47,379 nt of DNA from a virus. Lineage: Duplodnaviria > Heunggongvirae > Uroviricota > Caudoviricetes. Each line of letters starts with the position of its first letter. The first letter of the stretch is position 1. The translations under genes were made by a program, and so were the position numbers. Of this stretch, positions 29,813 through 37,820 are shown piece by piece. Where the stretch lies: the IMG/VR virus record IMGVR_UViG_2721755497_000004; one strand, given 5' to 3'. Under the pieces are notes generated by a model that worked only from the letters and a program-made list of their open reading frames with translations, did not search any database and had not been told where the DNA came from.

Positions 29813-29847
29813 TGCAGCCCGTTACCATTCGTAGCGGGCTTTTTTTG
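29813..29847 (+). terminator. plus-strand hairpin plus T7 run
   Basis: AGCCCG...CGGGCT stem followed by TTTTTTT. Confidence 0.45.
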
Positions 29848-29850
29848 TCC

Positions 29851-29876
29851 ATAAAAAAGCCCCTCCGGAGAGGGGC
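29851..29876 (-). terminator. minus-strand intrinsic terminator (GCCCCTC-CGGA-GAGGGGC plus U6)
   Basis: Perfect 7-bp GC stem preceded on the plus strand by AAAAAA; lies downstream (minus sense) of repeat element A. Confidence 0.55.
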
Positions 29877-29907
29877 ATACTAGCTATATATCCATTTATC
29901 ATTGGCT

Positions 29908-30037
29908 GCGTGGTGCCGGGTGCCTCCCGGTGAGCTCAGCCTGGTGTCACTGAGCCCGCACATTCTCGATCCAAGTTATCGTCGGAGATAATACCTGATA
30001 CACCAGACGCCCCTCCGCACAGGGGGATTCACCACGC
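29908..30037 (-). repeat. structured repeat element A (closing helix GCGTGGTG/CACCACGC)
   Basis: 5' arm plus CCGGG-TGCCT-CCCGG hairpin ... variable core ... CCCCT-CCGCAC-AGGGG hairpin plus GATT plus 3' arm; strand assigned from the flanking terminators. Confidence 0.7.
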
Positions 30038-30265
30038 GCAGAGAAGGATACTGAACACTATTTTCTCCAGGCAATATGCAATAACATGAAGTGTGAGATG
30101 ACTTACAATTATAAAAAACAGCCTACAGAATACTCCTAAATAAAGCCATATCAAAATGAGTAACACAAAAAGGAACCAGGCAAAAATTTACGAGCAGGTA
30201 TTATCCAGCAACAGTTCAGACGCCATAACTTATTGCCGATAGCTACCATCAATAATTTCTTTCAT

Positions 30266-30289
30266 AAAAAAGCCCCTCTGAAGAGGGGC
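30266..30289 (-). terminator. minus-strand intrinsic terminator (GCCCCTC-TGAA-GAGGGGC plus U6)
   Basis: Near-identical copy of the element A terminator, downstream (minus sense) of element B. Confidence 0.55.
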
Positions 30290-30316
30290 TGACATACGCA
30301 TTTGCTTTCATCATCA

Positions 30317-30439
30317 ATATGGCGCCGGGTGCCTCCCGGTGCTCCATAACTGATTAATATGGAACGCGGTTTCATTCAGTTGCATTCATGAATAACACTC
30401 TAATCAGTCCGCCCCGCCGCTTAGGGGGATTCGCCATAT
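30317..30439 (-). repeat. structured repeat element B (closing helix ATATGGCG/CGCCATAT, compensatory change)
   Basis: Same architecture as A; terminal helix sequence differs from A but remains perfectly complementary. Confidence 0.7.
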
Positions 30440-30574
30440 AAATTGAAAGTACTGAACACATCTGTCACAAACAATATGCAATTGTATGAATTGTGAGATT
30501 ATTATCAATAACACAAAATTACAGCTCTAGTACATAAACAGCAGATTAAACAAGAACAACAAAAGTATTGAATT

Positions 30575-30700
30575 GCACGGTGCCGGGTGCCTCCCGGTGA
30601 ATTCTGCAATGACCAGACAGAATCCGCAACTTGCTACTAACGCTAATGCGACCAAGCCTAACAGTCATTATGCCCCTCCGCACAGGGGGATTCACCATGC
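30575..30700 (-). repeat. structured repeat element C (closing helix GCACGGTG/CACCATGC, one mismatch)
   Basis: Same conserved hairpins GGTGCCGGGTGCCTCCCGGTGA and CCCCTCCGCACAGGGGGATTCACCA; different variable core. Confidence 0.7.
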
Positions 30701-30829
30701 GCTAAAAAAATACAAAACGTCACGTCACTCTGACAATACGAAGCACCATAAAATGTGAGTTATTTATCAATTCTTAATTCTGGTTACAGGAATATTCCGA
30801 ATCAAATCTTTAAAAAAAGAAATTCAAAT

Positions 30830-30932
30830 GCATGGTGCCGGGTGCCTCCCGGTGAACAGACCGTCCGTGATACCAGTCGGCAACACAGGAAATTAATGGT
30901 ATCACCCCACCGCACAGGGGGATTCACCATGC
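30830..30932 (-). repeat. structured repeat element D (closing helix GCATGGTG/CACCATGC)
   Basis: Same conserved hairpins; shorter variable core containing its own 9-bp hairpin GTGATACCA/TGGTATCAC. Confidence 0.7.
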
Positions 30933-31121
30933 AGGCGTTTTCTTAGCAAACTAACTGCGCGCCCGGCAACTCCCAACCACATAAAACGTGGAGTTTGTAG
31001 CATTTATGCACATAACTCACAGGGGTTATCTTAAAAAAAGCTGACCATGCTTCCCCGGCAACGCAATAACTTTATTCCCTGAAGTGGCATCCCCCGTATT
31101 GTCGGCAGGCTCAAAAAGGAG

Positions 31122-31587: not shown

Positions 31588-31665
31588 TGGACCGTCACCG
31601 GGGACTCGAACCCCGCATTTTCAACATAAAAAGGTTGATGCTCTTTCCTGATGAGCTAGTGACGG
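31588..31665 (-). tRNA. tRNA-like gene with 8-nt anticodon loop (possible unusual tRNA or pseudogene)
   Basis: 7-bp acceptor stem CCGTCAC/GTGACGG, encoded CCA, D arm GCTC/GAGC, T arm CGGGG-TTCGAGT-CCCCG, but anticodon arm TCAAC-CTTTTTAT-GTTGA has an 8-nt loop. Confidence 0.45.
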
Positions 31666-31667
31666 CA

Positions 31668-31742
31668 TGGTTGCCTTGCTGGATTTGAACCAGCGACCTG
31701 GCGATTATGAGTCTCTCGCTCTCACCACTGAGCTAAAGGGCC
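31668..31742 (-). tRNA. tRNA with CAU anticodon (Ile2/Met-like), acceptor and anticodon stems imperfect
   Basis: GGCCCTTTAGCTCAGTGG...CTCATAA...GCTGGTTCAAATCCAGC...CCA; D and T arms canonical; 3 terminal acceptor pairs and 2 anticodon-stem pairs mismatched; one nt short. Confidence 0.55.
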
Positions 31743-35670: not shown

Positions 35671-35949
35671 TTACCTCCAGATGCGTTGCTGGAATGTGCG
35701 GGACGGACGCGGTGGGCGTTCGGAGTAAGGAAGCCTGACGGAGATTATCCAGTGACGATAATCGAGGCTGAGGGCTTTCTTAATCTCGTATCCGTGTCTG
35801 CGGTAGCACTGAATTAGCCACTCGGCCTGTTCTTCAGTGCATGGGGGATGCTGGAACCAGTCAGATTTGAAAGTGCGGGAACGCCGCCCGTGCCTGCTGG
35901 CAAAGACGGCAGAATCATCAGAATTGTGTAATTTGGTATCGTGCGCCAT
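35671..35949 (-). CDS. hypothetical protein
   Basis: ~93 aa from the MAHDTKLHN Met; longer ORF-track start would overlap the hok terminator. Confidence 0.35.
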   Translation of the reverse strand: MAHDTKLHNSDDSAVFASRHGRRSRTFKSDWFQHPPCTEEQAEWLIQCYRRHGYEIKKALSLDYRHWIISVRLPYSERPPRPSRTFQQRIWR

Positions 35950-36021
35950 CGGTTGTCTCTGCTGGCGCAGCAGGTGCCAGTTGTTCAGGCTGGCGTGCGA
36001 ATTGTAAACCAGAATGCTAGG

Positions 36022-36048
36022 AAAAAACAAAACCCGCCGAAGCGGGTT
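36022..36048 (-). terminator. intrinsic terminator downstream of hok (AACCCGC-TTCG-GCGGGTT plus U-run)
   Basis: Perfect stem with tetraloop followed on the minus strand by TTTTGTTTTTT; nearby second hairpin GGCGAGGGA-TTTC-TCCCTCGCC (36088-36109). Confidence 0.55.
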
Positions 36049-36116
36049 AAGTGCGGGTGCGTTGAGGATGCCTGCCACATCAGAGGTGGCGAGGGATTTC
36101 TCCCTCGCCGGGTCTC

Positions 36117-36272
36117 TTACTCCTCAGGTTCGTAAGCTGTGAAGACAGCGACCTCCGTCTGGCCGGTTCGGATTCGTACCTCGCAGAGGTCTTTCCTCGT
36201 TACCAGTGCCGTCACTATGACGGTTAAACAGATGACGATCAGGGCGATTAACATCGCCTTTTGCTGCTTCAT
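36117..36272 (-). CDS. hokD: Hok-family type I toxin
   Basis: 51-aa MKQQKAMLIALIVICLTVIVTALVTRKDLCEVRIRTGQTEVAVFTAYEPEE, canonical Hok; nested in the longer mok-like frame starting at 36329. Confidence 0.85.
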   Translation of the reverse strand: MKQQKAMLIALIVICLTVIVTALVTRKDLCEVRIRTGQTEVAVFTAYEPEE

Positions 36273-36329
36273 AGCCTGCTTCTCCTTGCCTTTCGGCACG
36301 TAAGAGGCTAACCTAGATTTGCCGTTCAT
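36117..36329 (-). CDS. mok: Mok-like overlapping reading frame
   Basis: 70-aa frame (MNGKSRLASYVPKGKEKQA…) extending upstream of and in frame with hok. Confidence 0.45.
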   Translation of the reverse strand: MNGKSRLASYVPKGKEKQAMKQQKAMLIALIVICLTVIVTALVTRKDLCEVRIRTGQTEVAVFTAYEPEE

Positions 36330-36483
36330 AGATTGAGCCTCAGATTAATGTTAAGCGTCTTGCAGGACGCGTAATGTTAACTGGGGCTTTTCTCTATCTG
36401 CCTTTGGTGTTCATGCCTGAGACAGATAGCCTCAAGCACCCGCAGCCATTCTACTTAACTCCCGTTACCTCGCCAATATAAAA

Positions 36484-36573
36484 TCAATCAGAAAGGCGAT
36501 CCATAAGAACAACAGCAAGACAATAAATTGCCATTACAGCTGCAATAGCCAGCGCACATTTGAGAACCAGCAC
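36484..36573 (-). CDS. 29-codon hydrophobic small ORF with strong RBS (possible small membrane toxin-like peptide)
   Basis: AGGAGG then 5 nt then GTG CTG GTT CTC AAA TGT GCG...; peptide (M)LVLKCALAIAAVMAIYCLAVVLMDRLSD; not in ORF track (<60 aa). Confidence 0.35.
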   Translation of the reverse strand: MLVLKCALAIAAVMAIYCLAVVLMDRLSD

Positions 36574-37351
36574 GACAACCTCCTGTATTGGACGTACACC
36601 AGTCCTGATAAATATGAGGCTGTCTCATCATTGATGAGATACAACTATTGGGTATAGTTTCTGTGATTTTGTTCTGTAGAAATGGAACACAACAACCAGT
36701 CACCACCAGCACTTCTTTAAATACGCCAAGTCCGACGCAAGCTAACCTTCTAGTCCGCTTTGAGCGAAAAGCGGACATTCCTGTACAAAGCATGGCGTTG
36801 GAATACAGTAAGATCATTGATTAATAAGTGAGTCGAATCAGAACAGTAGCCAATGAAACAAAAAATTCGCAAACGTAACCAAGACTGGATATCAAGGCAA
36901 TTGAAACGTGCGCAAAAGAGGAAATGCCGTTAAGTTTCTTTATTAACTTTCCCTCAATATGAGCAACTGCTTGTAATGGTGTGCGCCTTAAACGGCATGG
37001 TCGTCTCAAGCCGGACTGGAGCCGCGCATTGTTTCATTAGGGTTGGGGAGAAGTGCCTATTGTTGGGCAAAAAGTAGTGTTTACTGGTTTGAGGGATTTG
37101 ATAAGGAGCAATTGCCTGTTGAATGGGGTGCGCTGTGGGAAGATGCCTGAATATATTGGTTTTGATTTGATCTCACAGTGCAACACACAATCAACTCTTA
37201 CAGTCTGCTGTGAGCAAAAATTGCACATTTCTAACAGCCTTCCGTGTGAATCAACGAGGAGCAGGTCACTGGCACAGAGGGGACGTTTAACCCCGTCCGG
37301 CCTCCGCTGAATTGGCTGCCAATTCCGTCCGGTCGTACCTGCCTGAGCCGT

Positions 37352-37576
37352 CTACTTCAGTAAAAACTGAATCAGCATAGCAAACATATATACTGTCGCT
37401 GCAATTTGTATTGTTCGCACTCCCCATCTGAGATATCGCCATTTATGACGTTCTCTGGCATCGGCTTCTTCAATGGTGGATTCAGTATGCTTTCTTCTCT
37501 TTGTCCTGAATGGATCAATTACCCATAGGGCAAGAATAAAGAGAACGATTGTTTTCTGAAGTATGGGATGATCCAC
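37352..37576 (-). CDS. hypothetical small membrane protein
   Basis: 74-aa ORF with two hydrophobic segments, GTG start. Confidence 0.3.
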   Translation of the reverse strand: MDHPILQKTIVLFILALWVIDPFRTKRRKHTESTIEEADARERHKWRYLRWGVRTIQIAATVYMFAMLIQFLLK

Positions 37577-37820
37577 GAAGAGTGACTCCGGCCTGCTCGC
37601 TGATACAATCAGAATAGATGAACAATCCCGAAATAATCAATACTAAATGTATGGCAATTATTTATTTTCGTCCTGGCTGGACTTTGTGACCTGCTCCCAA
37701 CAAATTAACATAGCACAATGTAAGCAAGTTCTGCTTTTGGCACAAAGCGGACAACCACGCTAGCTCTACCCTGTGCCACAAAATGTCAATTTGCATCTGA
37801 ACTAATGCACTTTAATCTCG

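What the first reader, a model, noticed from the sequence alone, without database searches (positions are those of the whole stretch)
36022..36573. hok/mok type I toxin module with an adjacent unannotated 29-codon hydrophobic ORF
A canonical 51-aa Hok toxin sits within a Mok-like frame, with a strong terminator and a fold-back-type hairpin downstream. Just upstream (36484-36573) a 29-codon ORF with a near-consensus RBS (AGGAGG, 5-nt spacing, GTG start) encodes a wholly hydrophobic peptide, a profile typical of small membrane toxins. An antisense Sok-like RNA is expected around the mok start but was not delimited.
Basis: partly seen in the sequence, partly recalled or inferred. Interest (0 to 1): 0.5.

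Follow-up and report, generated by a model that had tools for sequence, protein, structure and literature searches.

The report
Prophage hok/sok plus tiny membrane gene
This stretch of an E. coli prophage holds an ordinary, well-known hok/sok toxin-antitoxin module, and next to it a real but uncharacterised 29-residue membrane-peptide gene that is common in E. coli prophages and usually left unannotated.

Summary
On the minus strand, 36476-36022 is a complete hokD/hokW-type hok/mok/sok type I toxin-antitoxin locus. It has a promoter, the 5' tac element, mok (70 codons), hok (51 codons, identical to K-12 HokD), the 3' fbi fold-back element and a terminator. I delimited the missing Sok: promoter TTGCCT-17-TAACCT (36286-36314, +) and RNA at about 36321-36393 (+). 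This promoter is the one mutated experimentally in sokW of phage Sp5. This part is already known biology.

The 29-codon ORF (36573-36484, minus strand) is probably a real gene. It has an AGGAGG Shine-Dalgarno sequence and a GTG start. It is intact in every full-length copy outside the motif-selected sample. A diverged 34-aa subfamily, found without selecting on the ORF, keeps the peptide despite about 36% nucleotide divergence (pN/pS about 0.45; the other frames contain stops).

It is separable from hok: each occurs without the other, and the same Hok allele occurs with or without it. I found no promoter of its own, no terminator, no antisense partner, no unusual RNA structure and no match to any curated family. 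A type I toxin reading is therefore unsupported. It is most likely a single-pass membrane peptide translated from the phage early transcript. Its function is unknown.

The parts
36448..36476 (-). hok promoter, TTGGCG-17-TAGAAT
   Evidence: Consensus scan. It lies 6 nt upstream of the 5' end of the Rfam-aligned leader.
36022..36441 (-). full-length hok mRNA (about 420 nt)
   Evidence: The Rfam RF01794 alignment starts at 36441. The fold is -170.7 kcal/mol, z=-8.2.
36430..36441 (-). tac element (5' end GGGUGCUUGAGG), which pairs with fbi
   Evidence: MFE and centroid structures pair it with 36067-36055.
36117..36329 (-). mok reading frame (70 codons), in frame with hok
   Evidence: ORF list. PHROG 251 'MokW-like host killing', E=7.7e-33.
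36117..36272 (-). hok toxin gene (51 aa), identical to K-12 HokD
   Evidence: Pfam PF01848, E=3e-23. RefSeq names it hokD, WP_000813254.1. The K-12 HokD translation is identical.
36286..36314 (+). sok promoter: -35 TTGCCT (36286-91), 17-nt spacer, -10 TAACCT (36309-14)
   Evidence: Coordinates. [quoted passage not shown]
36321..36393 (+). Sok antisense RNA (about 70 nt; ends accurate to about 3 nt): 5' tail over the mok start and Shine-Dalgarno sequence, hairpin 36338-36386, U-rich tail
   Evidence: Fold -31.5 kcal/mol, z=-5.3. The sokW northern probe YO-592 corresponds to about 36350-36321 (20-nt core 36350-36331 mapped exactly). The paper reports 71 nt of complementarity to the hokW 5' UTR.
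36088..36109 (-). stem-loop just after the hok stop codon (GGCGAGGGAGAAAUCCCUCGCC)
36055..36067 (-). fbi (fold-back inhibition) element, CCUCAACGCACCC
   Evidence: It pairs with the 5' end in the MFE and centroid structures.
36022..36048 (-). intrinsic terminator of hok mRNA
   Evidence: 7-bp stem AACCCGC/GCGGGTT followed by TTGTTTTTTC.
36484..36573 (-). 29-codon ORF (fam1a) MLVLKCALAIAAVMAIYCLAVVLMDRLSD, predicted to be a single transmembrane helix
   Evidence: GRAVY 1.81. Its last 7 codons overlap the A/T-rich region just upstream of the hok -35.
36579..36584 (-). Shine-Dalgarno AGGAGG, 5 nt before the GTG start
   Evidence: Relatives keep it as AGGAGG, GGGAGG, AGGAGA or AAGGAGG.

Best explanation
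Two adjacent but separable units lie on the minus strand of a lambdoid prophage. This strand carries the phage's early rightward operon.

(1) 36476-36022 is a complete hokD/hokW-type hok/mok/sok type I toxin-antitoxin locus.
- A stable, highly folded hok mRNA is kept translationally silent by pairing of its 5' end (tac) with its 3' end (fbi).
- The roughly 70-nt Sok RNA comes from a constitutive antisense promoter and covers the mok Shine-Dalgarno sequence and start codon. This blocks mok translation and therefore the coupled hok translation.
- By analogy with hokW-sokW of Sp5, prophage induction removes Sok. Hok then inserts into the inner membrane and speeds up lysis and phage release.

(2) The 29-codon ORF directly upstream (36573-36484) is a genuine protein-coding gene. 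It belongs to an uncharacterised 29-34-aa family of Escherichia prophages and encodes one transmembrane helix with a short acidic/basic C-terminal tail.
- It has a strong Shine-Dalgarno sequence but no recognisable promoter, terminator or antisense RNA of its own.
- It is therefore most likely translated from the read-through early (pR-type) transcript during lytic growth. Any transcript covering it continues into hok.
- It is not a component of the hok/sok control circuit.
- Its molecular role at the membrane is unknown. Possibilities are modulating a membrane protein, or contributing to membrane perturbation before lysis.

Shown here: the anatomy, the conservation, and the separability of the two units. 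Inferred: translation of the ORF, its timing of expression, its membrane location and its function.
For: hok/sok:
- Pfam, E=3e-23.
- Rfam, 110 bits.
- Promoter and terminator.
- tac-fbi pairing, z=-8.2.
- Sok hairpin, z=-5.3.
- The sok promoter equals the experimentally defined sokW promoter, and the probe region matches.
- The Hok protein is identical to K-12 HokD.

The ORF is coding:
- AGGAGG plus a start codon predicts long ORFs in 7 of the 7 other cases in this window.
- 19 peptide variants in 125 viral contigs all keep GTG..stop, apart from one stop-codon loss.
- All 32 full-length copies in loci not selected on the ORF are intact.
- A 34-aa subfamily was found by anchoring the search on the hok leader only. 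It is intact in 108 of 112 loci.
- The two subfamilies differ at 30 of 84 nt. pN/pS is 0.42-0.46 in the ORF frame, and the other frames contain stops. Random placement of the differences gives p of about 0.006-0.03.
- The ORF columns are about 95% conserved, against 80-85% for the 200 nt upstream.

The ORF is separable from hok:
- 13 loci keep hok but only the last 23 nt of the ORF.
- 9 loci keep the ORF without hok.
- The identical Hok allele follows fam1a, fam1b, fam2 or none of these.
- The Sp5 hokW-sokW system works without it.

The ORF has no expression signals of its own: no promoter upstream of it reaches the scan threshold (9 of 12 consensus matches), and its translation-initiation region folds with z=-0.64.

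Setting in an operon: the early operon reads on this strand. In relatives, the neighbouring fam2 small ORF is translationally coupled to the preceding gene.
Against: - There are no expression data, so translation of the ORF is inferred only.
- The coding signal rests on a very short alignment (28 codons) and essentially three lineages (a, b, L102). pN/pS of 0.45 is only moderately below 1.
- Most copies are closely related (at least 90% identical), so intactness alone is weak evidence.
- Many relatives carry a weak promoter-like site (TTGAAT-17-CATATT, 8 of 12 matches) about 45 nt upstream. This could give independent expression. The window itself has lost the -35 of this site.
- The tight linkage to hok (about 92-98% of copies) could reflect a functional tie rather than mere adjacency.
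Confidence: 0.7

Rival explanations
1. The 29-aa ORF is a second type I toxin: a membrane-depolarising peptide held in check by its own antisense or divergent small RNA, as in tisB/istR, shoB/ohsC or zorO/orzO.
For: - Size, extreme hydrophobicity (GRAVY 1.81) and location on a mobile element next to another type I toxin.
- A promoter-like site on the + strand (TTAACT-18-TAAAAT, 36455-36484) would give an RNA antisense to the ORF. Another (TTGATG-16-TATAGT, 36631-36658) would give a divergent RNA.
- In the window, the MFE structure pairs the Shine-Dalgarno sequence with GACAGCCUC upstream.
Against: - Those promoter-like hits are at chance level: 4 found against 3.0 +/- 1.7 expected.
- The -10 of the first site degrades to TGAAAT in relatives, and its -35 is simply the complement of the hok promoter spacer.
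- The helix that occludes the Shine-Dalgarno sequence is not kept in diverged variants, and the region's fold is ordinary (z=-0.64).
- No complementary partner lies within 1.9 kb beyond a 14-of-18 A/T-rich match.
- The ORF has no promoter or terminator of its own.
- It matches no type I toxin family.
Confidence: 0.12
2. The ORF is not translated. It is a chance open frame, conserved because the DNA is young and because its 3' end doubles as the upstream (UP-like) part of the hok promoter.
For: - Chance ORFs of this size are frequent here.
- Most copies are at least 90% identical.
- The last 23 nt of the ORF travel with hok even where the rest is lost.
- An overlapping frame is also open in the window (a 109-aa ORF).
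- RefSeq's pipeline usually does not call the ORF.
Against: - Subfamilies a and b differ at 36% of nucleotides, yet keep the frame, the start, the Shine-Dalgarno sequence, the stop and a hydrophobic peptide. pN/pS is about 0.45, and the other two frames acquire stops.
- The two subfamilies have different 5' and 3' flanks, so a shared DNA-level element cannot explain the conservation.
- AGGAGG at 5 nt from a start codon marks long (71-860 aa) ORFs elsewhere in the window.
Confidence: 0.13
3. The peptide is a functional partner of Hok, for example a co-toxin, an anti-Hok 'antiholin-like' helix, or a cistron whose translation tunes a 5'-extended hok mRNA. The pair would then form a three-part module.
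For: - About 92% of fam1a copies and 98% of fam1b copies are followed by the hok leader within 200-260 nt.
- No terminator separates them, so any transcript of the ORF reads into hok.
- A second tiny transmembrane ORF family (fam2) occupies the same position in Sp5-type phages.
Against: - The identical Hok allele occurs with fam1a, fam1b, fam2 or none, so there is no co-variation.
- hok occurs without the ORF and the ORF occurs without hok.
- hok/sok systems of R1 and Sp5 function without it (and established knowledge of R1 hok/sok).
- Neighbouring genes 0-50 nt apart in mosaic phages are expected to be tightly linked anyway.
Confidence: 0.1

Closest known systems
hokW-sokW of Sakai prophage 5 (Takada et al. 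2021, PMC8621323)
   Same: - Same setting, in the nin region of a lambdoid prophage.
- Same leader, 51-aa Hok and in-frame mok.
- The sok promoter (TTGCCT-17-TAACCT) and the Sok hairpin region are identical or nearly identical to the primer and probe sequences in the paper.
- By inference, the same mechanism and the same role in induction-linked lysis.
   Different: - The Hok C-terminus is ...FTAYEPEE here and ...FVDYESEK in HokW.
- The allele of the Sok 5' tail / mok start segment differs.
- Sp5 has the fam2 27-aa ORF, not the fam1 29-aa ORF, directly upstream. Primer YO-432 starts at it.
hokD (relF) of the E. coli K-12 Qin prophage
   Same: The Hok protein is 100% identical. Downstream synteny is the same: a DUF968/ydfU-type gene and then the Q antiterminator.
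   Different: The K-12 copy has lost the promoter, tac, mok and sok region and sits directly behind relBE. The window carries the complete regulatory locus. K-12 Qin has no fam1 ORF at this position.
hok/sok of plasmid R1 (the archetype; established knowledge from the Gerdes laboratory)
   Same: Same architecture: tac/fbi fold-back, mok-coupled translation, and a roughly 65-70-nt Sok made from a promoter inside the leader.
   Different: It is plasmid-borne and acts in post-segregational killing. HokW and R1 Hok are only 44% identical. No small upstream ORF is described.
Type I membrane toxins of 19-35 aa (TisB, IbsC, ShoB, ZorO, DinQ, Ldr); comparison for the 29-aa ORF
   Same: Length, and a single very hydrophobic helix with a short charged end.
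   Different: The ORF matches none of these families in sequence. It has no antisense RNA, no promoter or terminator of its own, and no long structured 5' UTR.
Small single-pass membrane peptides that modulate larger membrane proteins (KdpF 29 aa, MgtS 31 aa, AcrZ 49 aa, Caulobacter SidA 29 aa); recalled from memory, a lead only
   Same: Size and topology class. These are expressed as ordinary cistrons with a normal Shine-Dalgarno sequence, as inferred here.
   Different: No homology was tested or expected. Those are chromosomal, whereas this family is prophage-borne. No target is known.

Membership tests
Hok/Gef toxin family (Pfam PF01848) | Profile match above the curated threshold | tested here: met
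   81.6 bits against a cut-off of 22, E=3e-23. PHROG 251, E=7.7e-33.
hok/sok type I toxin-antitoxin locus | An overlapping mok frame that starts upstream of hok | tested here: met
   A 70-codon ORF, 36329..36117, in frame with hok.
hok/sok type I toxin-antitoxin locus | A structured mRNA whose 5' tac element pairs with a 3' fbi element | tested here: met
   The MFE and centroid structures pair 36441-36430 with 36067-36055, z=-8.2. The leader matches RF01794 at 110 bits.
hok/sok type I toxin-antitoxin locus | An antisense Sok RNA gene with a promoter inside the leader, a hairpin and a U tail, covering the mok translation-initiation region | tested here: met
   TTGCCT-17-TAACCT at 36286-36314 (+). 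Hairpin at 36338-36386, z=-5.3. Same promoter as the validated sokW.
hok/sok type I toxin-antitoxin locus | Hok is toxic and Sok neutralises it | not testable with these tools
   Shown experimentally for the close homologue hokW-sokW. The protein here is identical to K-12 HokD.
Type I toxin (applied to the 29-aa ORF) | A small hydrophobic membrane peptide | tested here: met
   29 aa, GRAVY 1.81, best 19-residue window 2.70.
Type I toxin (applied to the 29-aa ORF) | A cognate antisense or partly complementary small RNA encoded at the locus | tested here: not met
   No conserved antisense promoter. No significant inverted repeat partner. No Rfam hit at 36442-36900 apart from one far-below-threshold + strand match (12.7 bits, E=4.5), even at E<=10. 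RNA-seq would be needed to exclude one entirely.
Type I toxin (applied to the 29-aa ORF) | A stand-alone transcription unit, usually with a structured 5' UTR that limits translation | tested here: not met
   No promoter upstream of the ORF reaches 9 of 12 matches in the window, L009 or L189. No terminator before the hok promoter. Fold z=-0.64.
Type I toxin (applied to the 29-aa ORF) | Sequence membership of a described toxin family (Ldr, Ibs, TisB, ShoB, Fst, Hok and others) | tested here: not met
   No Pfam, NCBIfam, PHROG or PADLOC family at E<=1; with the cut-off relaxed to E<=10 the best PHROG match is E=0.74, not significant.
Type I toxin (applied to the 29-aa ORF) | Toxicity on expression | not testable with these tools
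   No data. No paper contains the peptide sequence.
Bona fide protein-coding small gene (29-aa ORF) | A Shine-Dalgarno sequence and start codon conserved across relatives | tested here: met
   AGGAGG, GGGAGG or AGGAGA plus GTG in subfamily a. AAGGAGG plus ATG (one variant, 7 loci, with GTG) in subfamily b.
Bona fide protein-coding small gene (29-aa ORF) | Reading frame kept, and substitutions biased towards synonymous or conservative changes | tested here: met
   32 of 32 full-length copies in loci not selected on the ORF are intact. 108 of 112 subfamily b copies are intact. pN/pS is 0.42-0.46, against 0.6-1.5 with stops in the other frames. Power is limited by the 28-codon alignment.
Bona fide protein-coding small gene (29-aa ORF) | Evidence of translation | not testable with these tools
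   No Ribo-seq or proteomic data are available here.

The most novel reading that the evidence does not exclude
The fam1 peptide, and the analogous fam2 peptide in Sp5-type phages, could be an unrecognised third player of prophage hok/sok loci. It would be a tiny transmembrane helix, made only when the early phage transcript reads through on induction. It would either act as a second membrane-active toxin, or bind Hok in the membrane to time Hok-assisted lysis in a holin/antiholin-like manner.
Probability: 0.12. Interest if true: 0.55.

Novelty: new member of a known kind. Interest (0 to 1): 0.3.

Why it matters
The hok/sok part adds nothing new beyond a cleanly delimited, complete hokD-type locus. 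K-12's hokD is a truncated relic of the same gene.

The small ORF has modest value. The 211-nt query (36470-36680) that contains the ORF matches in 2510 of 5426 complete E. coli genomes, and 1720 of them hold at least 80% of it. The ORF is absent from Pfam, PHROGs and NCBIfam. The RefSeq pipeline usually skips it, and no paper mentions the peptide. It is therefore a concrete candidate for small-protein catalogues.

It also matters for anyone dissecting prophage hok function. Constructs and deletions made around hok promoters can include or truncate these tiny ORFs without anyone noticing. One example is primer YO-432 in PMC8621323, which starts at the neighbouring fam2 ORF.

Tried and rejected
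I worked around this with degenerate DNA patterns and with a 46-aa in-frame extension. The extension returned only Escherichia and E. albertii 'hypothetical' or 'membrane' proteins.
- tblastn of the 34-aa form against GenBank phages found only the four records that already carry fam1a.
- The peptide is not one of the K-12 prophage small proteins YlcH, YlcG, YlcJ, YnfS, YdfW or YdfB.
- I considered that the ORF is the 3' remnant of a DUF977 gene, because the B-strain DUF977 CDS overlaps it. I rejected this. That CDS is a deletion fusion reading in another frame, and the 29-aa ORF with its Shine-Dalgarno sequence is intact there.
- I considered the overlapping 109-aa frame (36817..36488) and the + strand 58-aa ORF (36648..36824) as the real genes. 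I rejected both: the peptides are not conserved, stops appear in subfamily b, and neither has a Shine-Dalgarno sequence.
- I proposed a promoter TTGAAT-17-CATATT for the ORF from the alignment. It scores only 8 of 12, is not picked up by the scan, is absent from subfamily b, and has lost its -35 in the window.
- The Rfam 'sok' hit lies on the hok-sense strand. The model covers the hok leader up to the hok AUG, so it does not locate Sok itself.
- The isrK-like hit on the hok 3' end is 28 bits, below the gathering score of 50. I dismissed it.
Full report
**Context.** The window is 100% identical over the 951-nt query (35950-36900) to the chromosome of E. coli strains M3 and M1. It lies in a lambdoid prophage whose early rightward operon reads on the minus strand. 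In order, the operon carries an HTH gene, a YdaT-family gene, a DNA-binding replication gene and a DUF977 gene. A 1.5-kb stretch without annotated genes follows, and then hokD, a hypothetical gene, DUF968, RusA and the Q antiterminator.

**Observation check: hok.** The minus strand carries a 70-codon frame (36329..36117). Its last 51 codons (36272..36117) are a Hok toxin.
- Pfam HOK_GEF matches at 81.6 bits, E=3e-23. PHROG 251 'MokW-like host killing' matches at E=7.7e-33.
- RefSeq names the gene hokD. The protein is identical to K-12 HokD.
- Rfam RF01794 ('sok') matches 36441..36267 on the minus strand at 110 bits, against a gathering score of 59. The model consensus runs through the hok Shine-Dalgarno sequence and AUG. 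The hit therefore marks the hok mRNA leader on the sense strand, not Sok itself.
- A sigma-70-like promoter, TTGGCG-17-TAGAAT (36476..36448), sits 6 nt upstream of the leader's 5' end. An intrinsic terminator (36048-36031 plus a T run) closes the unit.
- The 420-nt transcript folds at -170.7 kcal/mol, z=-8.2. In both the MFE and the centroid structure, the 5' end GGGUGCUUGAGG (tac, 36441-36430) pairs with CCUCAACGCACCC (fbi, 36067-36055).
- The hairpin directly after the hok stop codon (36109-36088) is a separate stem-loop.

**Sok delimited.** On the plus strand, TTGCCT (36286-91), a 17-nt spacer and TAACCT (36309-14) form a promoter. It is followed by a 5' tail that covers the mok start codon and Shine-Dalgarno sequence, a long hairpin (36338-36386) and a U-rich tail. 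This gives an RNA of about 70 nt (about 36321-36393) that folds at -31.5 kcal/mol, z=-5.3.

Takada et al. (PMC8621323) showed that hokW-sokW of Sakai prophage 5 is a functional type I toxin-antitoxin system. sokW is complementary to 71 nt of the hokW 5' UTR. It disappears on mitomycin C induction in a RecA-dependent way, after which HokW reaches the inner membrane and phage release doubles.

Their promoter-less mutant changes TAGGTTAG on the hok strand, which is the complement of the TAACCT -10 box found here. Their sokW probe corresponds to about 36350-36321 (the 20-nt core 36350-36331 was mapped exactly). This half of the finding is established biology.

Compared with K-12, the window has the complete locus. 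K-12 hokD has lost its promoter, tac, mok and sok and sits behind relBE.

**Observation check: the small ORF.** The GTG at 36573, the AGGAGG 5 nt upstream and the stop codon at 36484-36486 are as described. The peptide MLVLKCALAIAAVMAIYCLAVVLMDRLSD is strongly hydrophobic (GRAVY 1.81).

Length alone means nothing, since there are 33 ORFs of at least 20 aa in 1.6 kb. The Shine-Dalgarno sequence does carry information. The window has 15 AGGAGG sites, and 8 of them precede a start codon by 4-9 nt. The other seven open ORFs of 71-860 aa.

**Is it a gene?** The RefSeq record of this strain has nothing annotated there. In 39 of 40 sampled E. coli genomes nothing is annotated under the match. In the 40th (a B strain) the only feature is a DUF977 CDS, not the ORF. 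The 211-nt query that contains the ORF (36470-36680) matches in 2510 of 5426 complete genomes, and 1720 of them hold at least 80% of it. Some GenBank and RefSeq records do call the ORF 'hypothetical' or 'membrane protein'.

The evidence from relatives is as follows.
- A core-motif scan of IMG/VR viral contigs returned 125 loci with 19 peptide variants. All run GTG..stop, except one that has lost its stop codon.
- Those loci were selected on eight ORF codons, so I repeated the sampling anchored only on the hok leader or promoter. In loci not selected on the ORF, all 32 full-length homologous copies are intact.
- The hok-anchored sample revealed a diverged subfamily b: MSDDISLAMEGALAVIAVVGVYCLVVFLMDRLGN. 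It is 34 aa long, has an ATG start and an AAGGAGG Shine-Dalgarno sequence, and has different 5' and 3' flanks. An ORF-anchored scan for subfamily b found 112 readable loci. Of these, 108 are intact and four lose only the last two codons.
- Locus L102 holds an intermediate form.
- Subfamilies a and b differ at 30 of 84 aligned nucleotides but share 15 of 28 residues, and the replacements are hydrophobic. pN/pS is 0.42-0.46 in the ORF frame. The other two frames contain stops and give ratios of 0.6-1.5. Random placement of the same number of changes reaches the observed amino-acid identity without a stop in 31-128 of 5000 trials.
- The ORF columns are about 95% identical to the window, against 80-85% for the 200 nt upstream.
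- In the B strain, a deletion fused the DUF977 gene to a point just upstream of the ORF. The Shine-Dalgarno sequence and the ORF were left intact.

I conclude that the ORF is very probably a protein-coding gene under purifying selection. The test is short (28 codons, essentially three lineages), and there are no expression data.

**Relation to hok.** The ORF's stop codon lies 7 nt from the hok -35. About 92% of subfamily a copies and 98% of subfamily b copies are followed by the hok leader. Even so, the two units are separable.
- Thirteen loci keep hok with only the last 23 nt of the ORF, joined to the end of a QueH-like gene. This suggests that those 23 nt belong functionally to the hok promoter's upstream region.
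- Nine loci keep the ORF and have an unrelated sequence where hok would be.
- The identical HokD allele is found behind fam1a, fam1b, a second tiny ORF family (fam2) or none of these.
- Sp5 hokW-sokW works without fam1.

**Is it a type I toxin?** Beyond size and hydrophobicity, nothing supports this reading.
- No minus-strand promoter reaches the scan threshold upstream of the ORF in the window, in a majority subfamily a locus or in a subfamily b locus.
- A TTGAAT-17-CATATT site seen in the alignment scores only 8 of 12, and its -35 is lost in the window.
- No terminator separates the ORF from hok.
- The two plus-strand promoter-like sites nearby are at chance frequency and are not conserved.
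- No complementary partner was found within 1.9 kb.
- The translation-initiation region folds no better than shuffled sequence (z=-0.64). The helix that pairs with the Shine-Dalgarno sequence in the window is not kept in diverged variants.
- The peptide matches no family in Pfam, NCBIfam, PHROGs or PADLOC.
- No paper contains the peptide sequence.

**Most likely mechanism.**
- *hok/sok* (largely shown by homology to a tested system): Sok, made constitutively, blocks mok translation and the coupled hok translation. The tac-fbi fold keeps full-length mRNA inert. Induction removes Sok and Hok permeabilises the inner membrane. I infer, without having tested it, that N-antiterminated read-through from the early promoter runs head-on into the sok promoter. 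This would contribute to the RecA-dependent loss of Sok that Takada et al. left unexplained.
- *Small ORF* (inferred): it is an ordinary cistron of the early operon, translated from read-through transcripts during lytic growth. It yields a single-pass inner-membrane peptide. In relatives, the neighbouring fam2 ORF overlaps the stop codon of the preceding gene (TAATG), which is typical of nin-region operon genes. The peptide's target is unknown.

**Novelty and verdict.** The hok/mok/sok locus is already known. The 29-aa ORF belongs to a widespread but undescribed small-protein family and has no evidence of function. It is a new member of the known kind 'small phage membrane peptides'. Interest is low to moderate.

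Noticed in passing
window 37352-37576 (-): An unannotated 74-aa ORF with two hydrophobic segments (MDHPILQKTIVLFILALWVIDPF...). It matches phrog_25496 (unknown function) at E=2.4e-24. It lies in a 1.5-kb stretch (36330-37820) where RefSeq annotates no gene.
   Followed up: partly
window 36754-36777, 37204-37227, 37730-37753: Three copies of a palindromic hairpin element (TCCGCTTTGAGCGAAAAGCGGACA and variants). The outer two (43-nt arms, 74% complementary) bracket a 940-nt segment that holds the 74-aa gene. Homology to most related viral contigs stops at the 36780 copy. This could be a mosaic boundary or the end of a cassette.
   Followed up: partly
L102 (- strand orientation, positions 660-745); L192, L129, L064, L046; Sp5 primer YO-432: A second family of tiny transmembrane ORFs (fam2, 27 aa, MTWPEAFTTVGIAMAVALVVYSICRWG). 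Its start overlaps the stop codon of the preceding gene. It lies directly upstream of the hok promoter in Sp5-type phages, or upstream of fam1 in others. Some copies carry a stop at codon 3 (L205, L247).
   Followed up: partly
L189 and about 110 other subfamily b loci, between the fam1b stop codon and the hok promoter: A 22-bp perfect palindrome, CGATATGGGAATTCCCATATCG. The fam1b-plus-palindrome segment is bracketed by near-direct repeats GGGTAAAAACG(T/G)T. It therefore looks like a cassette that was inserted, or that was deleted in Sp5-type phages.
   Followed up: no
window 36318-36338 (Sok 5' tail, mok start codon and first codons): This roughly 21-nt segment occurs in 22 distinct sequence variants (roughly 7 sequence types) among 237 loci, while the flanking leader is about 95% conserved. 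Genomes carry up to 12 hok-like places. This is consistent with diversification of Sok target specificity, which would avoid cross-talk between co-resident prophages.
   Followed up: partly
L102 (- strand orientation, from about position 1075): The hok leader is intact up to the Sok hairpin, but the mok/hok coding region is replaced by a C5 cytosine methyltransferase-like gene that starts right after it.
   Followed up: no
window 29847-30962 (-) and 31591-31739 (-): Four tandem copies of the sRNA family STnc100 (RF02076, 77-133 bits) and two tRNA genes.
   Followed up: no
window about 35938-36135 (+): RefSeq annotates a 65-aa 'hypothetical protein' (WP_308286804.1) antisense to the hok 3' end, fbi and terminator. 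It matches no family and overlaps structured RNA, so it is probably a spurious call.
   Followed up: no
window 36624-36638: The window carries a 15-bp perfect palindrome, CTCATCATTGATGAG, where most relatives have TTGAATCACTGACGAG. The change removes the weak -35-like TTGAAT on the ORF strand. It also creates the TTGATG -35 of a plus-strand promoter-like site (36631-36658).
   Followed up: partly
L005 (E. coli C41(DE3)/B strain), positions 2515-2924: A deletion fuses codon 98 or so of the DUF977 gene to the sequence just upstream of the small ORF. The annotated 119-aa DUF977 protein therefore ends in an out-of-frame read across the small ORF.
   Followed up: yes
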